Origin: a virus
Taxonomy: Duplodnaviria > Heunggongvirae > Uroviricota > Caudoviricetes
DNA: 6,195 bases
Virus record (IMG/VR): IMGVR_UViG_2728369186_000004
Strand: one strand, 5' to 3'
Made by a program: the position numbers and the translations under genes. Under the pieces are notes generated by a model that saw nothing but the letters and a program-made list of their open reading frames with translations, was not told where the DNA came from and did no database searches. Each line of letters begins with the position of its first letter. Position 1 is the first letter of the stretch. Below are positions 1 through 6,195 of this stretch, piece by piece.

Positions 1-93
1 TGTTCTGAGGTGAGCATATCACCTCTGTTCAGGTGGCCAAATTCAGTAAACCACTTCAGAACCTTATTTCATGCAAATGAGATCTACAATTAG
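1..93 (+). CDS. 3' end of an upstream gene (partial, unknown product); frame 1 open from window edge to TAG at 91-93
   Basis: Frame 1 has no stop from position 1 until TAG 91-93 (...CSEVSISPLFRWPNSVNHFRTLFHANEIYN*), overlapping the tail-fibre start by 23 nt. Only 30 codons visible, no motif recognised. Confidence 0.3.
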   Translation, partial: CSEVSISPLFRWPNSVNHFRTLFHANEIYN

Positions 94-1498: not shown

Positions 1499-1540
1499 TA
1501 ATCCCGCTTAATTCTTTAGAGTTAGGCGGGATTATTTTTA
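1499..1540 (+). terminator. Rho-independent terminator after tail fibre gene
   Basis: Inverted repeat taATCCCGCttaa (1499-1511) / ttagGCGGGATta (1522-1534) with one G-U position and a ~10-nt loop, followed by tttta T-run (1535-1540), 19 nt after the tail-fibre stop. Confidence 0.6.
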
Positions 1541-2742: not shown

Positions 2743-2751
2743 TCCATAAAT

Positions 2752-2775
2752 ACCCTCATAGAATCTTATGGGGGT
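2752..2775 (+). promoter_or_regulatory. RNA hairpin sequestering the Shine-Dalgarno of the downstream 115-aa gene
   Basis: ACCCTCATA (2752-2760) pairs with TATGGGGGT (2767-2775): 9 bp with one G-U, 6-nt loop. The paired right arm contains the GGGGG SD (2770-2774) of the ATG at 2781. No T-tract follows, so not a typical terminator. Confidence 0.35.
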
Positions 2776-2780
2776 ATAAC

Positions 2781-3128
2781 ATGGCTAAAAATATTTTCAC
2801 TGAATTTCCTACTTATCCGGTCGACCAGCTTTCCGGTATTTTTATCAATGGCATTAGCCCAGAATCCATGACACATGATTTTGAGGCGAAGAGAGTTAAA
2901 CATAAACAATATAAAGAATGTATCCGCGATCATGAAAAAGGGACCGTGTTTTGTGTCGCTACATTGGCTAAACGTCCTAAATATCGTTTTCGTGTAGGGC
3001 AAGAAGTCGATGTAGTTAATCCTTATAGTTTTAACTGTCTGGGTGATGCACGCGCGGTGTGTGTAGGCACAACTAATTACTACATTAAAGGACTCAGATT
3101 TACCGGGTATATAATGGAATACATCTAA
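2781..3128 (+). CDS. Hypothetical protein (115 aa), unknown function
   Basis: ATG 2781 with GGGGG SD 6 nt upstream; ORF ends TAA 3126-3128 and is followed by a strong intrinsic terminator. Protein has 4 Cys and several His but no motif I can assign. Confidence 0.5.
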   Translation: MAKNIFTEFPTYPVDQLSGIFINGISPESMTHDFEAKRVKHKQYKECIRDHEKGTVFCVATLAKRPKYRFRVGQEVDVVNPYSFNCLGDARAVCVGTTNYYIKGLRFTGYIMEYI

Positions 3129-3142
3129 CTCTAATAAATACA

Positions 3143-3169
3143 AGCGACCAATTTCGGTCGCTTTTTTAT
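3143..3169 (+). terminator. Rho-independent terminator between the 115-aa gene and the Zn-ribbon gene
   Basis: AGCGACC (3143-3149) / GGTCGCT (3156-3162), perfect 7-bp GC-rich stem, loop aatttc, followed by TTTTTATT (3163-3169). Confidence 0.7.
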
Positions 3170-3180
3170 TTGGAGGAATC

Positions 3181-4218
3181 ATGGAGATTTTATTTGCTGA
3201 ATATATCAACTACACCGGATTTACAAGAAAAACGCCTCTTGACTATGAACCTATTGCCATTAAACGTTGTGATGAGTTGGGGTACATCTATAACGGTTTT
3301 GTTGTGCCGTGGAAAGGGCAACATACACCCGTTTCTATAACCTGCAAGAAACATAGCACAACGCGAACAATTGCTTTCAAAACTCTTAAAAAACAAGGTG
3401 CGTGTCTTGAATGCTATAAAGAATCATTAAAACTTCCTAAGAAAAAGAATAGAGATAAGGAAGCTGTACTAGATAAAGCAAGCAATGTGCTGGAACGCAA
3501 AGATATGGTTTTAGTTGGATTGTTAGAAGATTATAAAGGATTAGACACAAAAGTTTCTTATAAGTGCAATTGCTGTGATACTGCATACGAAACCATAATC
3601 ACTAGAATCATAAACGATGATGCTGGGTGTCGTCATTGTGGGTCAATTAAGAGAGGAATCAATAAGAGAAAACACACAGACGACGAATGGATGGATCTAA
3701 TTGAGCATGAATGCAGGAACAAACGACTTGAATTAATAGAACAACCTAAATCTCCTATATTGTCAACATCAAAAATACACATCAAATGTGAAAAAGGTCA
3801 TCTTTCTGATTCTTTGGTAGTTTATGGTTTAGTGTATGAAAACTTAGGCTGTCCATGTTGTTCTAAAAATGGTTATAACAGAAGTAAGTCGGGAGTTTTC
3901 TACGTTCAACAGGTCGGAGATTATATAAAATATGGAATAACAAACCATCTAAACCCACAAAAGCGAGTAACTCAACAAGCTAGGGAATCAGGGTTAAAAC
4001 ACAAGTTATTGTGGTATATAACGTTCGGTGACGGAAAAGTTGCCAATGACCTAGAGTATTCCGTAAAACATAACATAGGAAATCACGCTGCACCAAAAGA
4101 ACTAATCCCAGACGGATATACAGAAACATGTGACATAACCAAAGAAGCGCAGATTAGAAAAATGGCAATGGATTTTTGTAAAAACTCCAACAACTATAAA
4201 ATTACATATAGGGGGTAA
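3181..4218 (+). CDS. Protein with three tandem ~74-aa zinc-ribbon repeats and a C-terminal GIY-YIG/T5orf172-like domain (345 aa); candidate homing-endonuclease-like or DNA-binding nuclease-family protein
   Basis: SD GGAGG (3172-3176), ATG 3181. Metal-ligand sets at exactly 74-residue spacing: C55-x2-H58...C75-x2-C78; C129-x-C131C132...C150-x2-C153; C203-x3-H207...C224-x-C226C227, with flanking similarity (WKGQHTPVSITC / YKGLDTKVSYKC). C-terminus has GVFYVQQVGDYIKYGIT (GIY...YIG-like paired motifs), an Arg ~10 residues later (PQKRVTQQ) and downstream Glu (LEYSVKH, GYTETCD). Stop TAA 4216-4218 is 1 nt before the next ATG. Function inferred from motif spacing only. Confidence 0.55.
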   Translation: MEILFAEYINYTGFTRKTPLDYEPIAIKRCDELGYIYNGFVVPWKGQHTPVSITCKKHSTTRTIAFKTLKKQGACLECYKESLKLPKKKNRDKEAVLDKASNVLERKDMVLVGLLEDYKGLDTKVSYKCNCCDTAYETIITRIINDDAGCRHCGSIKRGINKRKHTDDEWMDLIEHECRNKRLELIEQPKSPILSTSKIHIKCEKGHLSDSLVVYGLVYENLGCPCCSKNGYNRSKSGVFYVQQVGDYIKYGITNHLNPQKRVTQQARESGLKHKLLWYITFGDGKVANDLEYSVKHNIGNHAAPKELIPDGYTETCDITKEAQIRKMAMDFCKNSNNYKITYRG

Positions 4219-4219
4219 T

Positions 4220-4573
4220 ATGTTAAGTAAGCATTTTTCTCGCAAGGAATTTAAATGTAAATGCGGAAAATGTGATTATGATACAATCGACGCTGAATTA
4301 CTGGTGATTCTTGAGGATGTACGCGAACACTTTGGGAAACCAGTGATTATTAACAGCGGGAACCGTTGTCCGAATCATAATAAGAATGTTGGCGGTGCAA
4401 CCAATAGCTATCATGTTCGAGGCCGTGCGGCTGACATATCAGTGAAAGGAATTTCTCCTGATATTGTTCATGCTTATCTTGATGGGAAGTATCCTACTCA
4501 ATACGGCTTAGGAAAATATAAAACCTTTACGCATATTGATTCCAGATCAAAAAAATCACGGTGGAATGGATAA
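4220..4573 (+). CDS. Peptidase M15-family (zinc D-Ala-D-Ala carboxypeptidase-like) cell-wall hydrolase; probable endolysin (117 aa)
   Basis: ATG 4220 with GGGGG SD (4211-4215) inside the 3' end of the upstream gene. Motifs FSRKEF...SGNRCPNHNKNVGG...SYH-x6-D (H-VRGRAA-D) and C-terminal FTHID match the metal-binding signature of Peptidase_M15-type phage lysins. No signal peptide or TM segment. Confidence 0.75.
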   Translation: MLSKHFSRKEFKCKCGKCDYDTIDAELLVILEDVREHFGKPVIINSGNRCPNHNKNVGGATNSYHVRGRAADISVKGISPDIVHAYLDGKYPTQYGLGKYKTFTHIDSRSKKSRWNG

Positions 4574-4763
4574 AACAAAAGCGCCTCTGGTGGGCGCTTT
4601 TTTGTTAGAATATGCTGGCGACGTTAGCTATATTTCTGACCATTTTTTCATTATAGACAAATATACCGCAGACGATAAAGTCGTTTTTGACGAAGTAGAT
4701 CCGTCTCTGGTTGAAGTAATGAAAGAACCGGAAGACCTAGAGCTTGATTTAAGCCAATTATAG
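4566..4763 (+). CDS. Questionable small acidic ORF (65 aa from ATG 4566)
   Basis: Track ORF 4536-4763 overlaps the peptidase gene and reads through the terminator hairpin at 4577-4604. The only ATG (4566) has a poorly spaced SD. C-terminus highly acidic (DEVDPSLVEVMKEPEDLELDLSQL). Listed for completeness; probably not a real gene. Confidence 0.2.
   Translation: MDKTKAPLVGAFLLEYAGDVSYISDHFFIIDKYTADDKVVFDEVDPSLVEVMKEPEDLELDLSQL
4577..4604 (+). terminator. Rho-independent terminator after the peptidase gene
   Basis: aaaaGCGCC (4577-4585) / GGCGCtttt (4593-4601), loop tctggtg, then T-run to 4603; begins 4 nt after the TAA at 4571-4573. Confidence 0.55.
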
Positions 4764-5107: not shown

Positions 5108-6064
5108 TTAAATTCCAAATTCTTGTAATGGACCTGGTATTTCTTCTTCTGGTTTCCAGTTCTTATCTGTCAGCATGTCTAAACATGGATGCAGAACAAG
5201 CCCGTTACTCTCCAGAATCTGCCTATCATTGATAGTCTTCAAATCAACGAAGATCCGGCCTTTCCTCGGTCCTCTTGAATTTTCTATTACAACTCTCTGG
5301 GTCTTGCCATCGATGTATTCCAGTACAAACAAGTTTTTGTACTTGTCAATCCTGCTACACCCGATCCGTTTTAGAGCTTGCTTAATCTTAAACCGGACCT
5401 TAATGCGATCCTCGTTGTAAACATCTTCTAAATCAAATTCTGCGAGCTTCTCCCAGCCTTGAGAGTCAACAGAATACATTTCCTCTTCTGCCATCTTAAT
5501 TTGATTGTAGAGTGTTTCACGCTCGCTATTGAGGGTAGTAATCTGATCGGCTAGCTCCTTCGTTGCTCCTGTCATAGCAGAAAGGGTAATCAGGTTATCA
5601 ATCTTGCGTGATATTTCATCAATCTGTACTTTCAAAGCCGGAACCGGATTAGCCTTATCTTCAGCAATCCAGATTTTATCAGCCAGCAATTGCAATACAG
5701 CTTTCTCTAATTGGTCGCCGCGAAAACTCCAGTTTGTATGCACACATTCAATACGACTAGAGCGCATTGCATCGCATGAATAACGATATTGGTTAGGCCG
5801 TCTGTTTGTTCCTTTCACCTTAACCATAGCGGAACCGCAATGTTCACATTTCAATAGACCAACACCACTAAGCAAGGGAATAGGTTTAACTTCTTCTTTG
5901 TCTCCAAAGTTACATGCTCTAACACCAATGCTTTTCTTAAGGTGATAAAACTCAGCGTCATCTAGCACACGAGGATAATAATCCTTTAACTCATACTTAA
6001 CGCCATCTACAGAGATTTCCTTGATACCAATCAAAGCGCGGGTATGGAACAACCTTTCAATCAT
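5108..6064 (-). CDS. Large serine recombinase, C-terminal portion only (end of recombinase domain, zinc ribbon, coiled-coil); N-terminal catalytic domain not encoded in frame, so possibly truncated or a pseudogene
   Basis: Zinc-ribbon motif LLSGVGLLKCEHCGSAMVKVKG...YRYSCDAMRSSRIECVHTNWSFRGDQLEKAVLQLL (C73, C76, C97, C107), followed by a long predicted coiled-coil, typical of large serine recombinases. No resolvase-type catalytic domain precedes it. The frame stays open upstream of ATG 6064 to an in-frame TAG at 6167-6169, and that stretch (LNATYTPPPAASHKRHSNWSRA-MIERLFHTRALIG) still resembles the recombinase domain (W-x4-[VI]-x-R-[IL]...Y/L-x-G). Confidence 0.7.
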   Translation of the reverse strand: MIERLFHTRALIGIKEISVDGVKYELKDYYPRVLDDAEFYHLKKSIGVRACNFGDKEEVKPIPLLSGVGLLKCEHCGSAMVKVKGTNRRPNQYRYSCDAMRSSRIECVHTNWSFRGDQLEKAVLQLLADKIWIAEDKANPVPALKVQIDEISRKIDNLITLSAMTGATKELADQITTLNSERETLYNQIKMAEEEMYSVDSQGWEKLAEFDLEDVYNEDRIKVRFKIKQALKRIGCSRIDKYKNLFVLEYIDGKTQRVVIENSRGPRKGRIFVDLKTINDRQILESNGLVLHPCLDMLTDKNWKPEEEIPGPLQEFGI

Positions 6065-6195
6065 TGCCCGTGACCAGTTTGAATGCCTCTTGTGACTTGC
6101 GGCTGGTGGTGGTGTGTATGTCGCGTTAAGGTGATCTGATCCTACCCACGTAATATGGACACAGGCCTAAGCGAGGTTCTTGTTTTCAAATTGTT

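What the first reader, a model, noticed from the sequence alone, without database searches (positions are those of the whole stretch)
3100..3180. Strong terminator abutting the RBS of the Zn-ribbon gene, with a consensus TATAAT just upstream
The terminator U-tract ends at 3169 and the GGAGG SD begins at 3172, leaving no room for a promoter between them. A perfect TATAAT lies at 3110-3115 inside the 3' end of the 115-aa gene but has only a weak -35 (ttaaag, 3085-3090). Transcripts entering the nuclease-like/peptidase pair must therefore read through this hairpin, implying antitermination-dependent (late) expression or a conditional attenuator, a likely way to keep a lysin or a toxic nuclease silent until late.
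Basis: seen in the sequence. Interest (0 to 1): 0.45.

Follow-up and report, generated by a model that had tools for sequence, protein, structure and literature searches.

The report
Terminator guarding a mobile nuclease gene
The hairpin is a real terminator, but it arrived as the front end of a selfish homing-endonuclease gene inserted just ahead of a prophage's lysis enzyme, and a phage promoter-like motif next to it probably lets the cassette's own transcripts skip it.

Summary
An 8-bp G+C-rich stem (3142-3163, -12.3 kcal/mol) is followed by a U-tract (3164-3171) that runs straight into GGAGG (3172-3176) and ATG 3181. TATAAT is at 3110-3115.

Of 55 complete E. coli genomes with this prophage locus, 51 have the 115-aa gene's stop 6-7 nt from the endolysin ATG (TAAGGGGGTAATATG), with no hairpin and no 345-aa gene. 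So hairpin and ORF are one 1,082-bp insertion (3129-4210).

The ORF encodes a CapR-zinc-finger/GIY-YIG (T5orf172-type) homing-endonuclease-like protein under purifying selection.

The TATAAT exists in only one of three cassette alleles and is simply Tyr-Ile-Met codons.

One base before the stem lies TAATAAATA. This octamer class ([T/A/C]ATAAATA) is almost exclusively intergenic in these prophages. It sits 34-86 nt before start codons and is followed by a pyrimidine-purine step at +5/+6. It also lies in the 5' arm of hairpins that occlude the ribosome-binding site of paralogous endonuclease genes, the terminase gene and the 115-aa gene.

Best model: the terminator stops and translationally silences read-through transcripts. 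Transcripts starting near G3146 lack its 5' arm and express the nuclease and the endolysin. This resembles T4 I-TevI/mobE control. No antiterminator was found.

The parts
3129..4210 (+). Inserted cassette (1,082 bp, boundary +/-1 nt): 5' control region plus the homing-endonuclease-like ORF
   Evidence: Empty sites in L002, L003, L046, L047 and L048 read TAA(A/G)GGGGGTAATATG. Of 55 complete E. coli genomes with the locus, 51 have it uninterrupted and 3 carry the window-type cassette junction.
3132..3140 (+). TAATAAATA: phage promoter-like octamer class [T/A/C]ATAAATA, with predicted start near G3146
   Evidence: AATAAATA is invariant in the 3 cassette alleles. The same 9-mer sits 40-41 nt before paralogous HEG genes and 37-38 nt before the terminase gene. 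The octamer class is intergenic in 9/9 sites (L050) and 10/11 sites (L172). Position +5 is a pyrimidine in 26/31 contexts and +6 a purine in 27/31.
3129..3138 (+). 5' strand of the lower helix. It includes the anti-SD CUCU (3129-3132) and pairs with 3165-3175.
   Evidence: Folds of all three alleles keep this helix, in three different registers, at -19.6, -23.8 and -22.1 kcal/mol.
3142..3163 (+). Core terminator hairpin: 8-bp stem with 5 G-C pairs and a 6-nt loop
   Evidence: -12.3 kcal/mol. The stem is invariant in three alleles whose ORFs differ at dS 0.27-1.2. Changes fall only in the loop and in the spacer base 3141.
3164..3171 (+). U-tract UUUUAUUU, directly contiguous with the SD
3172..3176 (+). 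Shine-Dalgarno GGAGG of the 345-aa ORF. G3172-G3175 pair with the anti-SD in read-through RNA.
   Evidence: SD pairing probability is 0.77-0.85 in full-length RNA and 0.40-0.49 in RNA starting at 3147.
3181..4218 (+). 345-aa CapR zinc-finger repeat + GIY-YIG (MUG113/T5orf172-type) homing-endonuclease-like gene. Its last codons AGG GGG TAA reuse the endolysin SD.
3110..3115 (+). It is an allele-specific coding sequence, not part of the element.
   Evidence: a single C-to-A difference from TATCTAAT. It is not called by the promoter scan.
2781..3128 (+). Upstream 115-aa gene, whose transcripts run into the terminator. Its 3' end (about 3068-3125) is mosaic among alleles.
2745..2777 (+). Sister element: CATAAATA (2745-2752) embedded in the 5' arm of a 12-bp hairpin (2750-2761 / 2766-2777) that buries the 115-aa gene's SD GGGGG
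   Evidence: -15.3 kcal/mol, z = -4.8. SD pairing is 0.99 in full-length RNA against 0.44 in truncated RNA. It is fully conserved across diverged alleles except one loop base.
4211..4573 (+). Endolysin SD (GGGGG, 4211-4215) and M15 peptidase gene (4220-4573), downstream of and dependent on transcripts that cross the cassette
   Evidence: Peptidase_M15_3, E = 3.5e-28. phrog_894 'endolysin'. No octamer lies between 3141 and 4220.

Best explanation
The hairpin is the 5' control module of a mobile, freestanding homing-endonuclease gene (HEG) cassette of the T5orf172/CapR type. The cassette inserted seamlessly between the 115-aa gene and the endolysin gene of a temperate E. coli prophage.

On RNA that enters from the upstream 115-aa gene, the module does two things. 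The G+C stem plus U-tract acts as an intrinsic terminator. In molecules that read through, the extended lower helix pairs the nuclease's SD with the anti-SD CUCU that directly follows the upstream stop codon.

The cassette also carries a copy of the prophage's own promoter-like octamer (TAATAAATA, 3132-3140) in the 5' strand of that helix. Transcripts initiated about 6 nt downstream, near G3146, lack the 5' arm. They can neither terminate nor hide the SD, so they express the nuclease and the endolysin behind it.

Shown: the anatomy, the insertion polymorphism, the nuclease fold, the conservation pattern and the statistics of the octamer. Inferred: termination in vivo, promoter activity and start site, and translational occlusion.
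For: Insertion. Related prophages lack both hairpin and ORF and have TAAGGGGGTAATATG at the site. Of 55 complete genomes with the locus, 51 have it uninterrupted and 3 carry the window-type cassette junction.

HEG identity. The architecture matches the T5orf172 HEGs with CapR/DUF723 zinc-finger repeats described in PMC10448857. dN/dS is 0.09-0.14.

Terminator anatomy and stability.

Constraint. The stem and octamer are invariant in three alleles whose synonymous divergence is 0.27-1.2. Substitutions fall only in the loop, the spacer base 3141 and the SD edge, and the block 3133-3173 is identical between alleles with dS 0.90.

The lower helix is kept in three registers.

Octamer.
- It is intergenic in 9/9 sites in L050 and 10/11 in L172, where 13-14% of bases are intergenic. 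Composition-matched 8-mers are only 45% intergenic.
- Most sites are in sense orientation, 34-86 nt before start codons.
- It is present before the terminase gene, the 115-aa gene and the paralogous CapR-type HEG-like genes (331, 337 and 391 aa).
- Position +5 is a pyrimidine in 26/31 contexts and +6 a purine in 27/31.

Hairpins that begin inside the octamer and cover the SD or start codon are very stable. z is at or below -3.4 in 6/12 motif UTRs against 0/12 control UTRs.

Removing the 5' arm lowers SD pairing from 0.77-0.99 to 0.29-0.49.

The same logic is established for T-even HEGs (PMC2988022).
Against: - No transcript data exist, so terminator efficiency, promoter activity and start site are all inferred.
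- The octamer is not a good sigma-70 -10 element (A instead of T at -7) and has no -35.
- No gp55-like sigma or other dedicated factor was recognisable among the prophage's early genes.
- An A-rich tract 5' of a terminator is also a generic feature of bidirectional terminators, so the octamer here could be partly coincidental.
- Only 4 of the 5 SD bases lie in a weak A/U-rich lower helix.
- Across the whole prophage, SD pairing is not significantly higher in motif-bearing UTRs (Mann-Whitney p = 0.17).
- No compensatory changes are available, because the core stem never varies.
- Part of the identity between alleles may reflect recombination, as in the 99%-identical patch 4010-4210.
- Distant homologues rarely have an upstream terminator (3 of 22).
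Confidence: 0.55

Rival explanations
1. The hairpin is only a leaky attenuator. It partially terminates transcripts from the 115-aa gene's promoter, and the fraction that reads through is the sole source of nuclease and endolysin mRNA. The adjacent octamer is just the A-tract of the terminator.
For: The same late gene array contains other sense-strand terminators with no octamer behind them: after the capsid, tail-tube and tail-tip genes (window 1499-1534). Partial read-through must therefore be normal in this phage. An A-tract/U-tract pairing is generic for terminators, and the same stem design occurs in many unrelated genomes.
Against: The exact 9-mer TAATAAATA recurs 40-41 nt upstream of the paralogous CapR-type HEG-like genes (three ORF types), which have no terminator, and upstream of the terminase gene. 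The octamer class is almost exclusively intergenic and is followed by a fixed pyrimidine-purine step. Putting a -12 kcal/mol terminator with 7 U in the 8 nt after the stem in front of the essential endolysin, with nothing to compensate, should be costly. Yet the module is conserved across alleles with dS up to 1.2.
Confidence: 0.22
2. Late transcription complexes are made terminator-resistant by a phage antiterminator (lambda Q/N or put-like), so the nuclease and lysin are expressed only after antitermination.
For: Four to five sense-strand terminators lie inside one roughly 25-kb co-directional late array. That arrangement is compatible with processive antitermination.
Against: No Q-, N- or other antiterminator family was found among the early-region proteins (Pfam and PHROGs; PDB sequence searches). 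There was no put/nut-type or any other Rfam match. The terminator is absent from about 93% of related prophages (51 of 55 complete genomes with the locus), so it is not part of the phage's ancestral regulatory plan.
Confidence: 0.12
3. The hairpin is mainly an RNA-stability element. It would be a 3' stabiliser of the 115-aa mRNA, or a 5'-terminal stem-loop protecting cassette transcripts if they start at or before 3142.
For: The position 13 nt after a stop codon is typical of 3' stabilising terminators. If the start site were 1-3 nt after the octamer, the transcript would begin with the stem-loop (geometry).
Against: The pyrimidine-purine step lies at +5/+6 after the octamer, inside the stem arm. 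A 5' hairpin followed by a U-tract and pairing to the SD would permanently block translation. The 115-aa gene does without any such element in 51 of 55 genomes.
Confidence: 0.07
4. The hairpin is a non-functional passenger: a terminator that was next to the nuclease gene in a donor genome and was co-transferred.
For: In the same prophage family, a gp38-like adhesin gene sits immediately after the phage's own tail-tube terminator, with an almost identical junction (GCTTTTTTATTGGAGTAATCA). So terminator-SD abutment can arise simply from where cassettes land.
Against: Stem, U-tract and octamer are invariant in alleles with nearly saturated synonymous divergence, and changes are confined to unpaired positions.
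Confidence: 0.04

Closest known systems
Regulatory hairpins of T-even phage homing endonuclease genes (I-TevI, I-TevII, I-TevIII, segB, Aeh1 mobE), reviewed in PMC2988022
   Same: A nuclease gene inserted among essential phage genes. A stable hairpin just upstream involves the RBS. A short A/T-rich late-type promoter (T4: TATAAATA; here TAATAAATA) lies in the 5' part of the hairpin, so that only read-through transcripts can fold it (one search compared).
   Different: Here the upper part of the hairpin is a complete intrinsic terminator with a U-tract. The RBS is only partly covered. The host is a 35-kb temperate siphovirus-like prophage with no recognisable gp55. The endonuclease belongs to the T5orf172/CapR class, which T4 lacks. 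No experimental data exist.
Intrinsic terminators associated with T4 mobE and segF, and the hairpin of seg43(25) of Aeromonas phage 25 (PMC2988022)
   Same: Terminators placed at the start of freestanding HEGs are thought to limit read-through into the nuclease. For mobE, a promoter downstream restores expression of the essential neighbour. The seg43(25) hairpin sits immediately upstream of, and abuts, the RBS without covering it.
   Different: The mobE and segF terminators lie inside the 5' coding region, not upstream of the RBS. For mobE the rescuing promoter lies after the HEG, whereas here the candidate promoter lies before it and overlaps the terminator.
T5orf172 homing endonucleases with CapR/DUF723 zinc-finger repeats (ICP1, T5-like and other phages; PMC10448857, PMC8096241)
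   Same: The domain architecture (zinc-finger repeats followed by a C-terminal GIY-YIG-type T5orf172/MUG113 domain), presence/absence polymorphism between syntenic phages, clustering with other HEGs, and location next to essential genes.
   Different: Word searches found no occurrence of 'promoter' or 'terminator' in the main text of PMC10448857. This example is in a temperate E. coli prophage, next to the endolysin.
Morons of lambdoid prophages (extra gene flanked by its own promoter and terminator; own knowledge, Hendrix and colleagues)
   Same: An extra, polymorphic gene unit inserted between two conserved phage genes, bringing its own transcription signals.
   Different: Here the terminator is at the 5' end, not the 3' end. 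The unit has no terminator of its own behind it and feeds into the endolysin gene. The cargo is a selfish nuclease rather than a host-fitness gene.

Membership tests
Rho-independent (intrinsic) terminator | G+C-rich stem of 5-14 bp with a short loop | tested here: met
   8-bp stem with 5 G-C pairs, 6-nt loop, -12.3 kcal/mol.
Rho-independent (intrinsic) terminator | U-rich tract immediately 3' of the stem | tested here: met
   UUUUAUUU at 3164-3171, 7 of 8 U.
Rho-independent (intrinsic) terminator | Located downstream of a coding region, on the sense strand | tested here: met
   The stem starts 13 nt after TAA 3126-3128 of the 115-aa gene.
Rho-independent (intrinsic) terminator | RNA 3' ends form at the U-tract (termination activity) | not testable with these tools
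   Needs Term-seq or in vitro transcription.
T-even-type HEG translational-control hairpin with embedded late promoter | The regulated gene is a homing endonuclease gene | tested here: met
   Insertion polymorphism; GIY-YIG fold and CapR repeats. Cleavage activity was not tested.
T-even-type HEG translational-control hairpin with embedded late promoter | The hairpin sequesters the RBS | tested here: inconclusive
   G3172-G3175 pair with CUCU in a weak lower helix. SD pairing probability is 0.77-0.85 in the three alleles. There is no covariation. The prophage-wide comparison is not significant.
T-even-type HEG translational-control hairpin with embedded late promoter | A promoter inside the 5' arm, so that its transcripts cannot form the hairpin | tested here: inconclusive
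   The octamer 3133-3140 is conserved. It is intergenic in 19/20 sites over two prophages, with a pyrimidine-purine step at +5/+6 that predicts +1 at G3146 inside the arm. No transcript mapping is available.
T-even-type HEG translational-control hairpin with embedded late promoter | A T4-type late transcription apparatus (gp55/gp33) in the same genome | tested here: not met
   No sigma-like or gp55/gp33 family was detected among the early-region proteins. Very divergent factors cannot be excluded.
Processive antitermination system (lambda Q/N, put RNA) | An antiterminator protein gene or a put/nut-type RNA element | tested here: not met
   Pfam and PHROGs scans of early genes found none. Rfam found no match in the window.
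Processive antitermination system (lambda Q/N, put RNA) | Several terminators inside one long co-directional late operon | tested here: met
   Sense-strand terminators lie after the capsid, tail-tube and tail-tip genes, plus this one.
T5orf172-type homing endonuclease (PMC10448857) | T5orf172/MUG113 (GIY-YIG superfamily) nuclease domain at one terminus | tested here: met
T5orf172-type homing endonuclease (PMC10448857) | Repeated CapR/DUF723/DUF4397-type zinc-finger DNA-binding modules | tested here: met
   CapR scores 29.9 bits against a cut-off of 24.2 on residues 1-220. Three CxxC-type repeat units appear in the model and alignment.
T5orf172-type homing endonuclease (PMC10448857) | Site-specific cleavage of the HEG-less allele, and homing | not testable with these tools
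   Needs nuclease assays on the empty-site DNA and mixed-lysogen crosses.

The most novel reading that the evidence does not exclude
This 35-kb temperate E. coli prophage family may run a T4-late-style expression logic. The proposed promoter is an 8-bp element [T/A/C]ATAAATA without a -35 box, with initiation 6 nt downstream. It is built into the 5' arm of hairpins that occlude the RBS or start codon of the terminase gene, the lysis-module gene and several endonuclease genes. That would imply an unrecognised gp55-like factor, or a new way of using host polymerase, in a small temperate element. It would also imply that mobile HEG cassettes copy the host phage's promoter and fuse it to a terminator, so that they are insulated from upstream transcription yet still feed the downstream endolysin.
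Probability: 0.3. Interest if true: 0.7.

Novelty: new variant of a known kind. Interest (0 to 1): 0.5.

Why it matters
If the model holds, three things follow.

- A selfish nuclease gene can insert directly in front of an essential lysis gene without killing its phage. It brings a terminator that shields it from foreign transcription, plus a copy of the phage's own promoter that restores expression of the downstream gene.
- The hairpin-with-embedded-promoter control, known so far only from T-even phage endonucleases, would extend to the recently defined T5orf172/CapR endonucleases and to temperate prophages.
- It would flag a compact, testable promoter motif in a common but uncharacterised E. 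coli prophage family. About 1% of complete genomes carry this prophage.

If the model fails, the feature is an ordinary leaky terminator at a cassette boundary.

Tried and rejected
- **Rfam.** Searches of the region (E up to 1) and of the whole window (gathering scores) found nothing.
- **Covariation.** The test on the three cassette alleles is uninformative because the core stem never varies.
- **Family-wide terminator.** I asked whether the terminator is a trait of the protein family. Only 3 of 22 distant homologues in viral contigs have a terminator within 130 nt upstream, so it is not.
- **Pattern scan of genome contigs.** The stem pattern returned at least 120 unrelated terminators in unrelated taxa. 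This shows only that the stem is generic.
- **More cassette alleles.** The metagenome and viral scans found none. The alignment-based scan of genome contigs failed for lack of a conserved stretch.
- **Sigma factor or antiterminator.** None was recognised among the early genes.
- **SD pairing across the prophage.** Motif-bearing UTRs bury the SD no more than other UTRs do (not significant, p = 0.17). The claim is therefore restricted to the subset with very stable hairpins.
- **TATAAT at 3110-3115.** Rejected as a promoter because it is not conserved among alleles and has a 19-nt spacer to a poor -35.
- **Integron attC site, IS end or REP-type repeat.** Considered and rejected. There is no attC core and no repeats at the cassette ends. 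Apart from three short matches to the 3' end of the 115-aa gene, the 241-nt junction matches only the three cassette-bearing complete E. coli genomes.
- **Minus-strand terminator role.** Considered unlikely. The minus-strand tail is weak (GUAUUUAUUA), and the minus-strand genes end more than 1.6 kb away behind their own terminators.
Full report
**1. Observation**

The sequence is as described. The 115-aa ORF ends with TAA at 3126-3128. It is followed by CTCTAATAAATAC, then the stem AAGCGACC (3142-3149), the loop AATTTC, the stem GGTCGCTT (3156-3163), the U-tract TTTTATTT (3164-3171), GGAGG (3172-3176), AATC and ATG (3181).

The pattern scan reports this as a terminator on both strands. It finds 12 terminator-like sites in the window against 4.7 +/- 2.2 in shuffles. 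The core hairpin folds at -12.3 kcal/mol and the extended helix 3129-3176 at -19.3. The local fold has z = -4.8 to -5.8.

TATAAT is at 3110-3115 and TTAAAG at 3085-3090. The spacer between them is 19 nt, and the pair is not listed by the promoter scan.

The only correction is that the U-tract ends at 3171, so it touches the SD.

**2. What surrounds it**

The window is a 6.1-kb fragment of an E. coli-type prophage. It is bracketed by IS3-family ends at 1-58 and 6137-6195. The gene content is:

| Coordinates | Feature | Evidence |
|---|---|---|
| 71-1480 | 3' part of a tail-tip (J-like) gene | |
| 1499-1534 | strong terminator | |
| 1587-2742 | two small membrane-type ORFs and a 227-aa ORF | |
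| 2781-3128 | the 115-aa ORF | |
| 3181-4218 | the 345-aa ORF | |
| 4220-4573 | M15 peptidase endolysin | |
| 5108-6064 (minus strand) | truncated serine recombinase | |

Intact relatives are prophages of about 35-38 kb, inserted in hicB or near ycdX/ycdY.

**3. The decisive comparison**

In strain H2 (L002) and many others, the 115-aa gene's stop is 6-7 nt from the endolysin ATG, with the sequence TAAGGGGGTAATATG. These genomes have no hairpin and no 345-aa gene.

Of 5,426 complete E. coli genomes, 55 carry the locus and 51 have it uninterrupted; the window-type cassette junction is found in 3 complete genomes.

The inserted segment is 3129-4210 (1,082 bp, +/-1 nt). It leaves the upstream stop codon and the endolysin SD intact. 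The ORF's last codons, AGG GGG TAA, are the endolysin's own SD region. The hairpin therefore came in with the ORF.

Three alleles of the cassette exist, always at this site:
- the window type;
- a type 92% identical at the protein level (L036/L037);
- a type 83% identical at the protein level (L004-L011).

**4. The ORF**

The evidence that the ORF is a homing-endonuclease-like gene is as follows.
- It matches PHROG 681 'endonuclease' at E = 8.8e-43.
- Its N-terminal half passes the Pfam CapR threshold (29.9 bits).
- It has 1,447 relatives at E <= 0.001.
- Of 32 aligned family members (the query included), 30 match CapR, 13 MUG113, 6 T5orf172 and 1 GIY-YIG.
- Y241, R262 and E292 are invariant in the family alignment.
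- dN/dS between alleles is 0.09-0.14.

This is the architecture described for T5orf172 homing endonucleases with CapR/DUF723 zinc-finger repeats (PMC10448857).

The prophage family is rich in such genes. There are paralogous CapR-type HEG-like genes between the endolysin and the recombinase, next to a UvsW-like helicase. One member also has a NUMOD3 gene among the tail genes.

**5. The TATAAT**

TATAAT occurs only in the window-type allele. The other alleles and the empty sites read TATCTAAT, TATCTTCT or TATCTTAT at that place. It is the codons Tyr-Ile-Met. I treat it as fortuitous.

**6. Constraint on the hairpin**

The three alleles differ at synonymous sites by dS = 0.27, 0.90 and 1.23. Despite this, the 16 stem nucleotides, the U-tract and AATAAATA are invariant.

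The window and L004 alleles (dS 0.90) are identical over 3133-3173. The L036 allele differs only at the spacer base 3141, at two loop bases, and at the U-tract/SD edge.

The lower helix (3129-3138 with 3165-3175) is kept in three different registers, at -19.6, -23.8 and -22.1 kcal/mol. Because the stem never varies, there is no covariation evidence. Part of the identity could also be recombination, as in the 99%-identical patch 4010-4210.

**7. A promoter-like octamer next to the stem**

TAATAAATA (3132-3140) ends one base before the stem. Several observations suggest it is a promoter-like element.

- **It recurs in front of other genes.** The same 9-mer lies 40-41 nt before the ATG of the paralogous CapR-type HEG-like genes (331, 337 and 391 aa), whose flanks are otherwise different. 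It also lies 37-38 nt before the terminase large-subunit gene.
- **It is intergenic.** The class [T/A/C]ATAAATA is intergenic in 9 of 9 occurrences in the cassette-free prophage L050, where 14% of bases are intergenic; composition-matched 8-mers are 45% intergenic. It is intergenic in all 9 hits in L049. In the diverged prophage L172 it is intergenic in 10 of 11, and the eleventh lies in the last codons of a gene, 38 nt before the next start.
- **It is oriented towards genes.** Most sites are in sense orientation, 34-86 nt before a start codon, and orthologous sites are retained between diverged prophages.
- **It is followed by a fixed start-site signature.** In 31 distinct contexts, the fifth base after the octamer is a pyrimidine in 26 and the sixth a purine in 27, never C. 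By my count these contexts fall into about 15 independent UTR families, of which 13 have the purine. As far as I recall, a T4 late promoter (TATAAATA) lies at about -13 to -6, so initiation at this purine would match that geometry.
- **It predicts a start inside the stem.** For the cassette this places +1 at G3146, inside the 5' arm of the terminator stem (3142-3149).

**8. The octamer is built into hairpins**

For the 115-aa gene (window 2745-2777), a 12-bp helix starts at the sixth base of CATAAATA and buries the SD GGGGG (-15.3 kcal/mol, z = -4.8). It is conserved across diverged alleles except for one loop base.

The terminase UTR and the four paralogous CapR-type HEG UTRs folded show the same plan. 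In the HEG UTRs the helix runs from the last bases of the octamer to the UAU of UAUG (z from -2.1 to -6.2).

Six of 12 motif UTRs have z <= -3.4, against 0 of 12 control UTRs. Removing the bases up to +6 lowers SD pairing from 0.77-0.99 to 0.29-0.49.

Not every motif UTR is structured. A prophage-wide comparison of SD pairing is not significant (p = 0.17).

**9. Model**

Transcripts coming from the 115-aa gene meet a canonical terminator. Those that read through carry the extended helix, in which the nuclease's SD pairs with the CUCU that follows the upstream stop codon.

Transcripts that start at the cassette's own octamer lack the 5' arm. They are translatable and continue into the endolysin gene, which has no octamer of its own. 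The cassette thus replaces the transcription it blocks.

The closest established precedent is the control of T-even endonuclease genes. There, RBS-sequestering hairpins carry a late promoter placed so that late transcripts cannot form them (I-TevI, I-TevII, I-TevIII, segB, Aeh1 mobE). Terminators occur at the start of mobE and segF. A very stable hairpin abuts the RBS of seg43(25) (PMC2988022).

Three things differ here: the hairpin is a complete terminator, the endonuclease is of the T5orf172/CapR class, and the host is a small temperate prophage in which no gp55-like factor could be recognised.

**10.

The late array does contain other sense-strand terminators, after the capsid, tail-tube and tail-tip genes. 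Read-through of terminators therefore happens in this phage. However, no antiterminator protein or RNA was found, and this particular terminator is absent from most relatives. A purely leaky-attenuator reading remains the main rival.

**11. Status in this window**

Here the prophage is a remnant cut by IS3 copies, with both the tail-tip gene and the recombinase truncated. The module is probably not exercised in this genome, even though all its parts are intact and identical to those in full prophages.

**12. Verdict**

The feature is a cassette-borne terminator and RBS-occluding hairpin of a mobile endonuclease gene, probably paired with an embedded phage promoter. It is a new variant of a known regulatory kind. 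I rate its interest as moderate. The interest rises if the octamer proves to be a T4-late-like promoter system in a temperate phage.

Noticed in passing
window 1-58 and 6137-6195: Both window ends are ends of IS3-family elements. The prophage segment between them is a remnant: the tail-tip gene lacks its 5' two-thirds and the serine recombinase gene is truncated (318 of about 559 codons).
   Followed up: partly
window 2745-2777: CATAAATA is embedded in a 12-bp hairpin that buries the SD of the 115-aa gene (-15.3 kcal/mol, z = -4.8). It is conserved over diverged alleles except one loop base, and follows the same design as the cassette's control region.
   Followed up: yes
window 1499-1534: A very strong terminator (16-bp stem, T-run) lies after the tail-tip gene, 52 nt before the first lysis-module ORF. 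No octamer lies between it and the next gene.
   Followed up: partly
L050 15116-15700 (minus strand) compared with L049 16120-16350: A gp38-like adhesin gene (Pfam Gp38_N) is inserted immediately after the phage's own tail-tube terminator. The junction, GCTTTTTTATTGGAGTAATCAAAATG, is nearly identical to the cassette's GCTTTTTTATTTGGAGGAATCATG. This is a second case of a terminator abutting an RBS at an insertion polymorphism.
   Followed up: partly
L045 1225-1295: A NUMOD3-type endonuclease gene is inserted among the tail genes. It has a -23.5 kcal/mol hairpin (z = -4.9) whose 3' arm contains its SD and whose loop contains AATAAATA.
   Followed up: partly
window 4010-4210, compared with L004: The last 200 nt of the endonuclease ORF are about 99% identical between alleles that are otherwise about 78-80% identical. 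The adjacent endolysin gene is again about 78% identical. This looks like a recombination or gene-conversion patch at the cassette's 3' edge.
   Followed up: no
window 3068-3125: The 3' end of the 115-aa gene is mosaic. Some empty-site alleles (L046-L048) resemble the cassette-bearing alleles, while others (L002, L003) differ at about one base in three. This may be the endonuclease's target or co-conversion tract.
   Followed up: partly
L003, L007, L036 and L004, between the endolysin and the recombinase: A variable 'HEG island' holds one to three further CapR/MUG113 genes and a UvsW-like DEAD-box helicase (plus a UvsY-like fragment in L037). It is absent from the window.
   Followed up: partly
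L050 intergenic regions (about 30400-31650): The 8-mer TAGTGTAG(G) occurs 6 times in intergenic DNA and never in coding DNA. It may be an operator-like repeat in the early region.
   Followed up: no
window 4577-4601: A G+C-rich hairpin (AGCGCC...GGCGCT) flanked by A- and T-runs lies inside the small ORF that overlaps the end of the endolysin gene. The scan calls it as a terminator on the minus strand.
   Followed up: no
L049, L050 and L172 (whole prophages): The 35-38-kb element encodes head, tail, lysis, TerS/TerL, Rha and a serine recombinase. It has no recognisable repressor, replication, sigma or antiterminator genes. Its nearest terminase in the phage collection is that of the 141-kb Escherichia phage DCP80 (43% identity).
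   Followed up: partly
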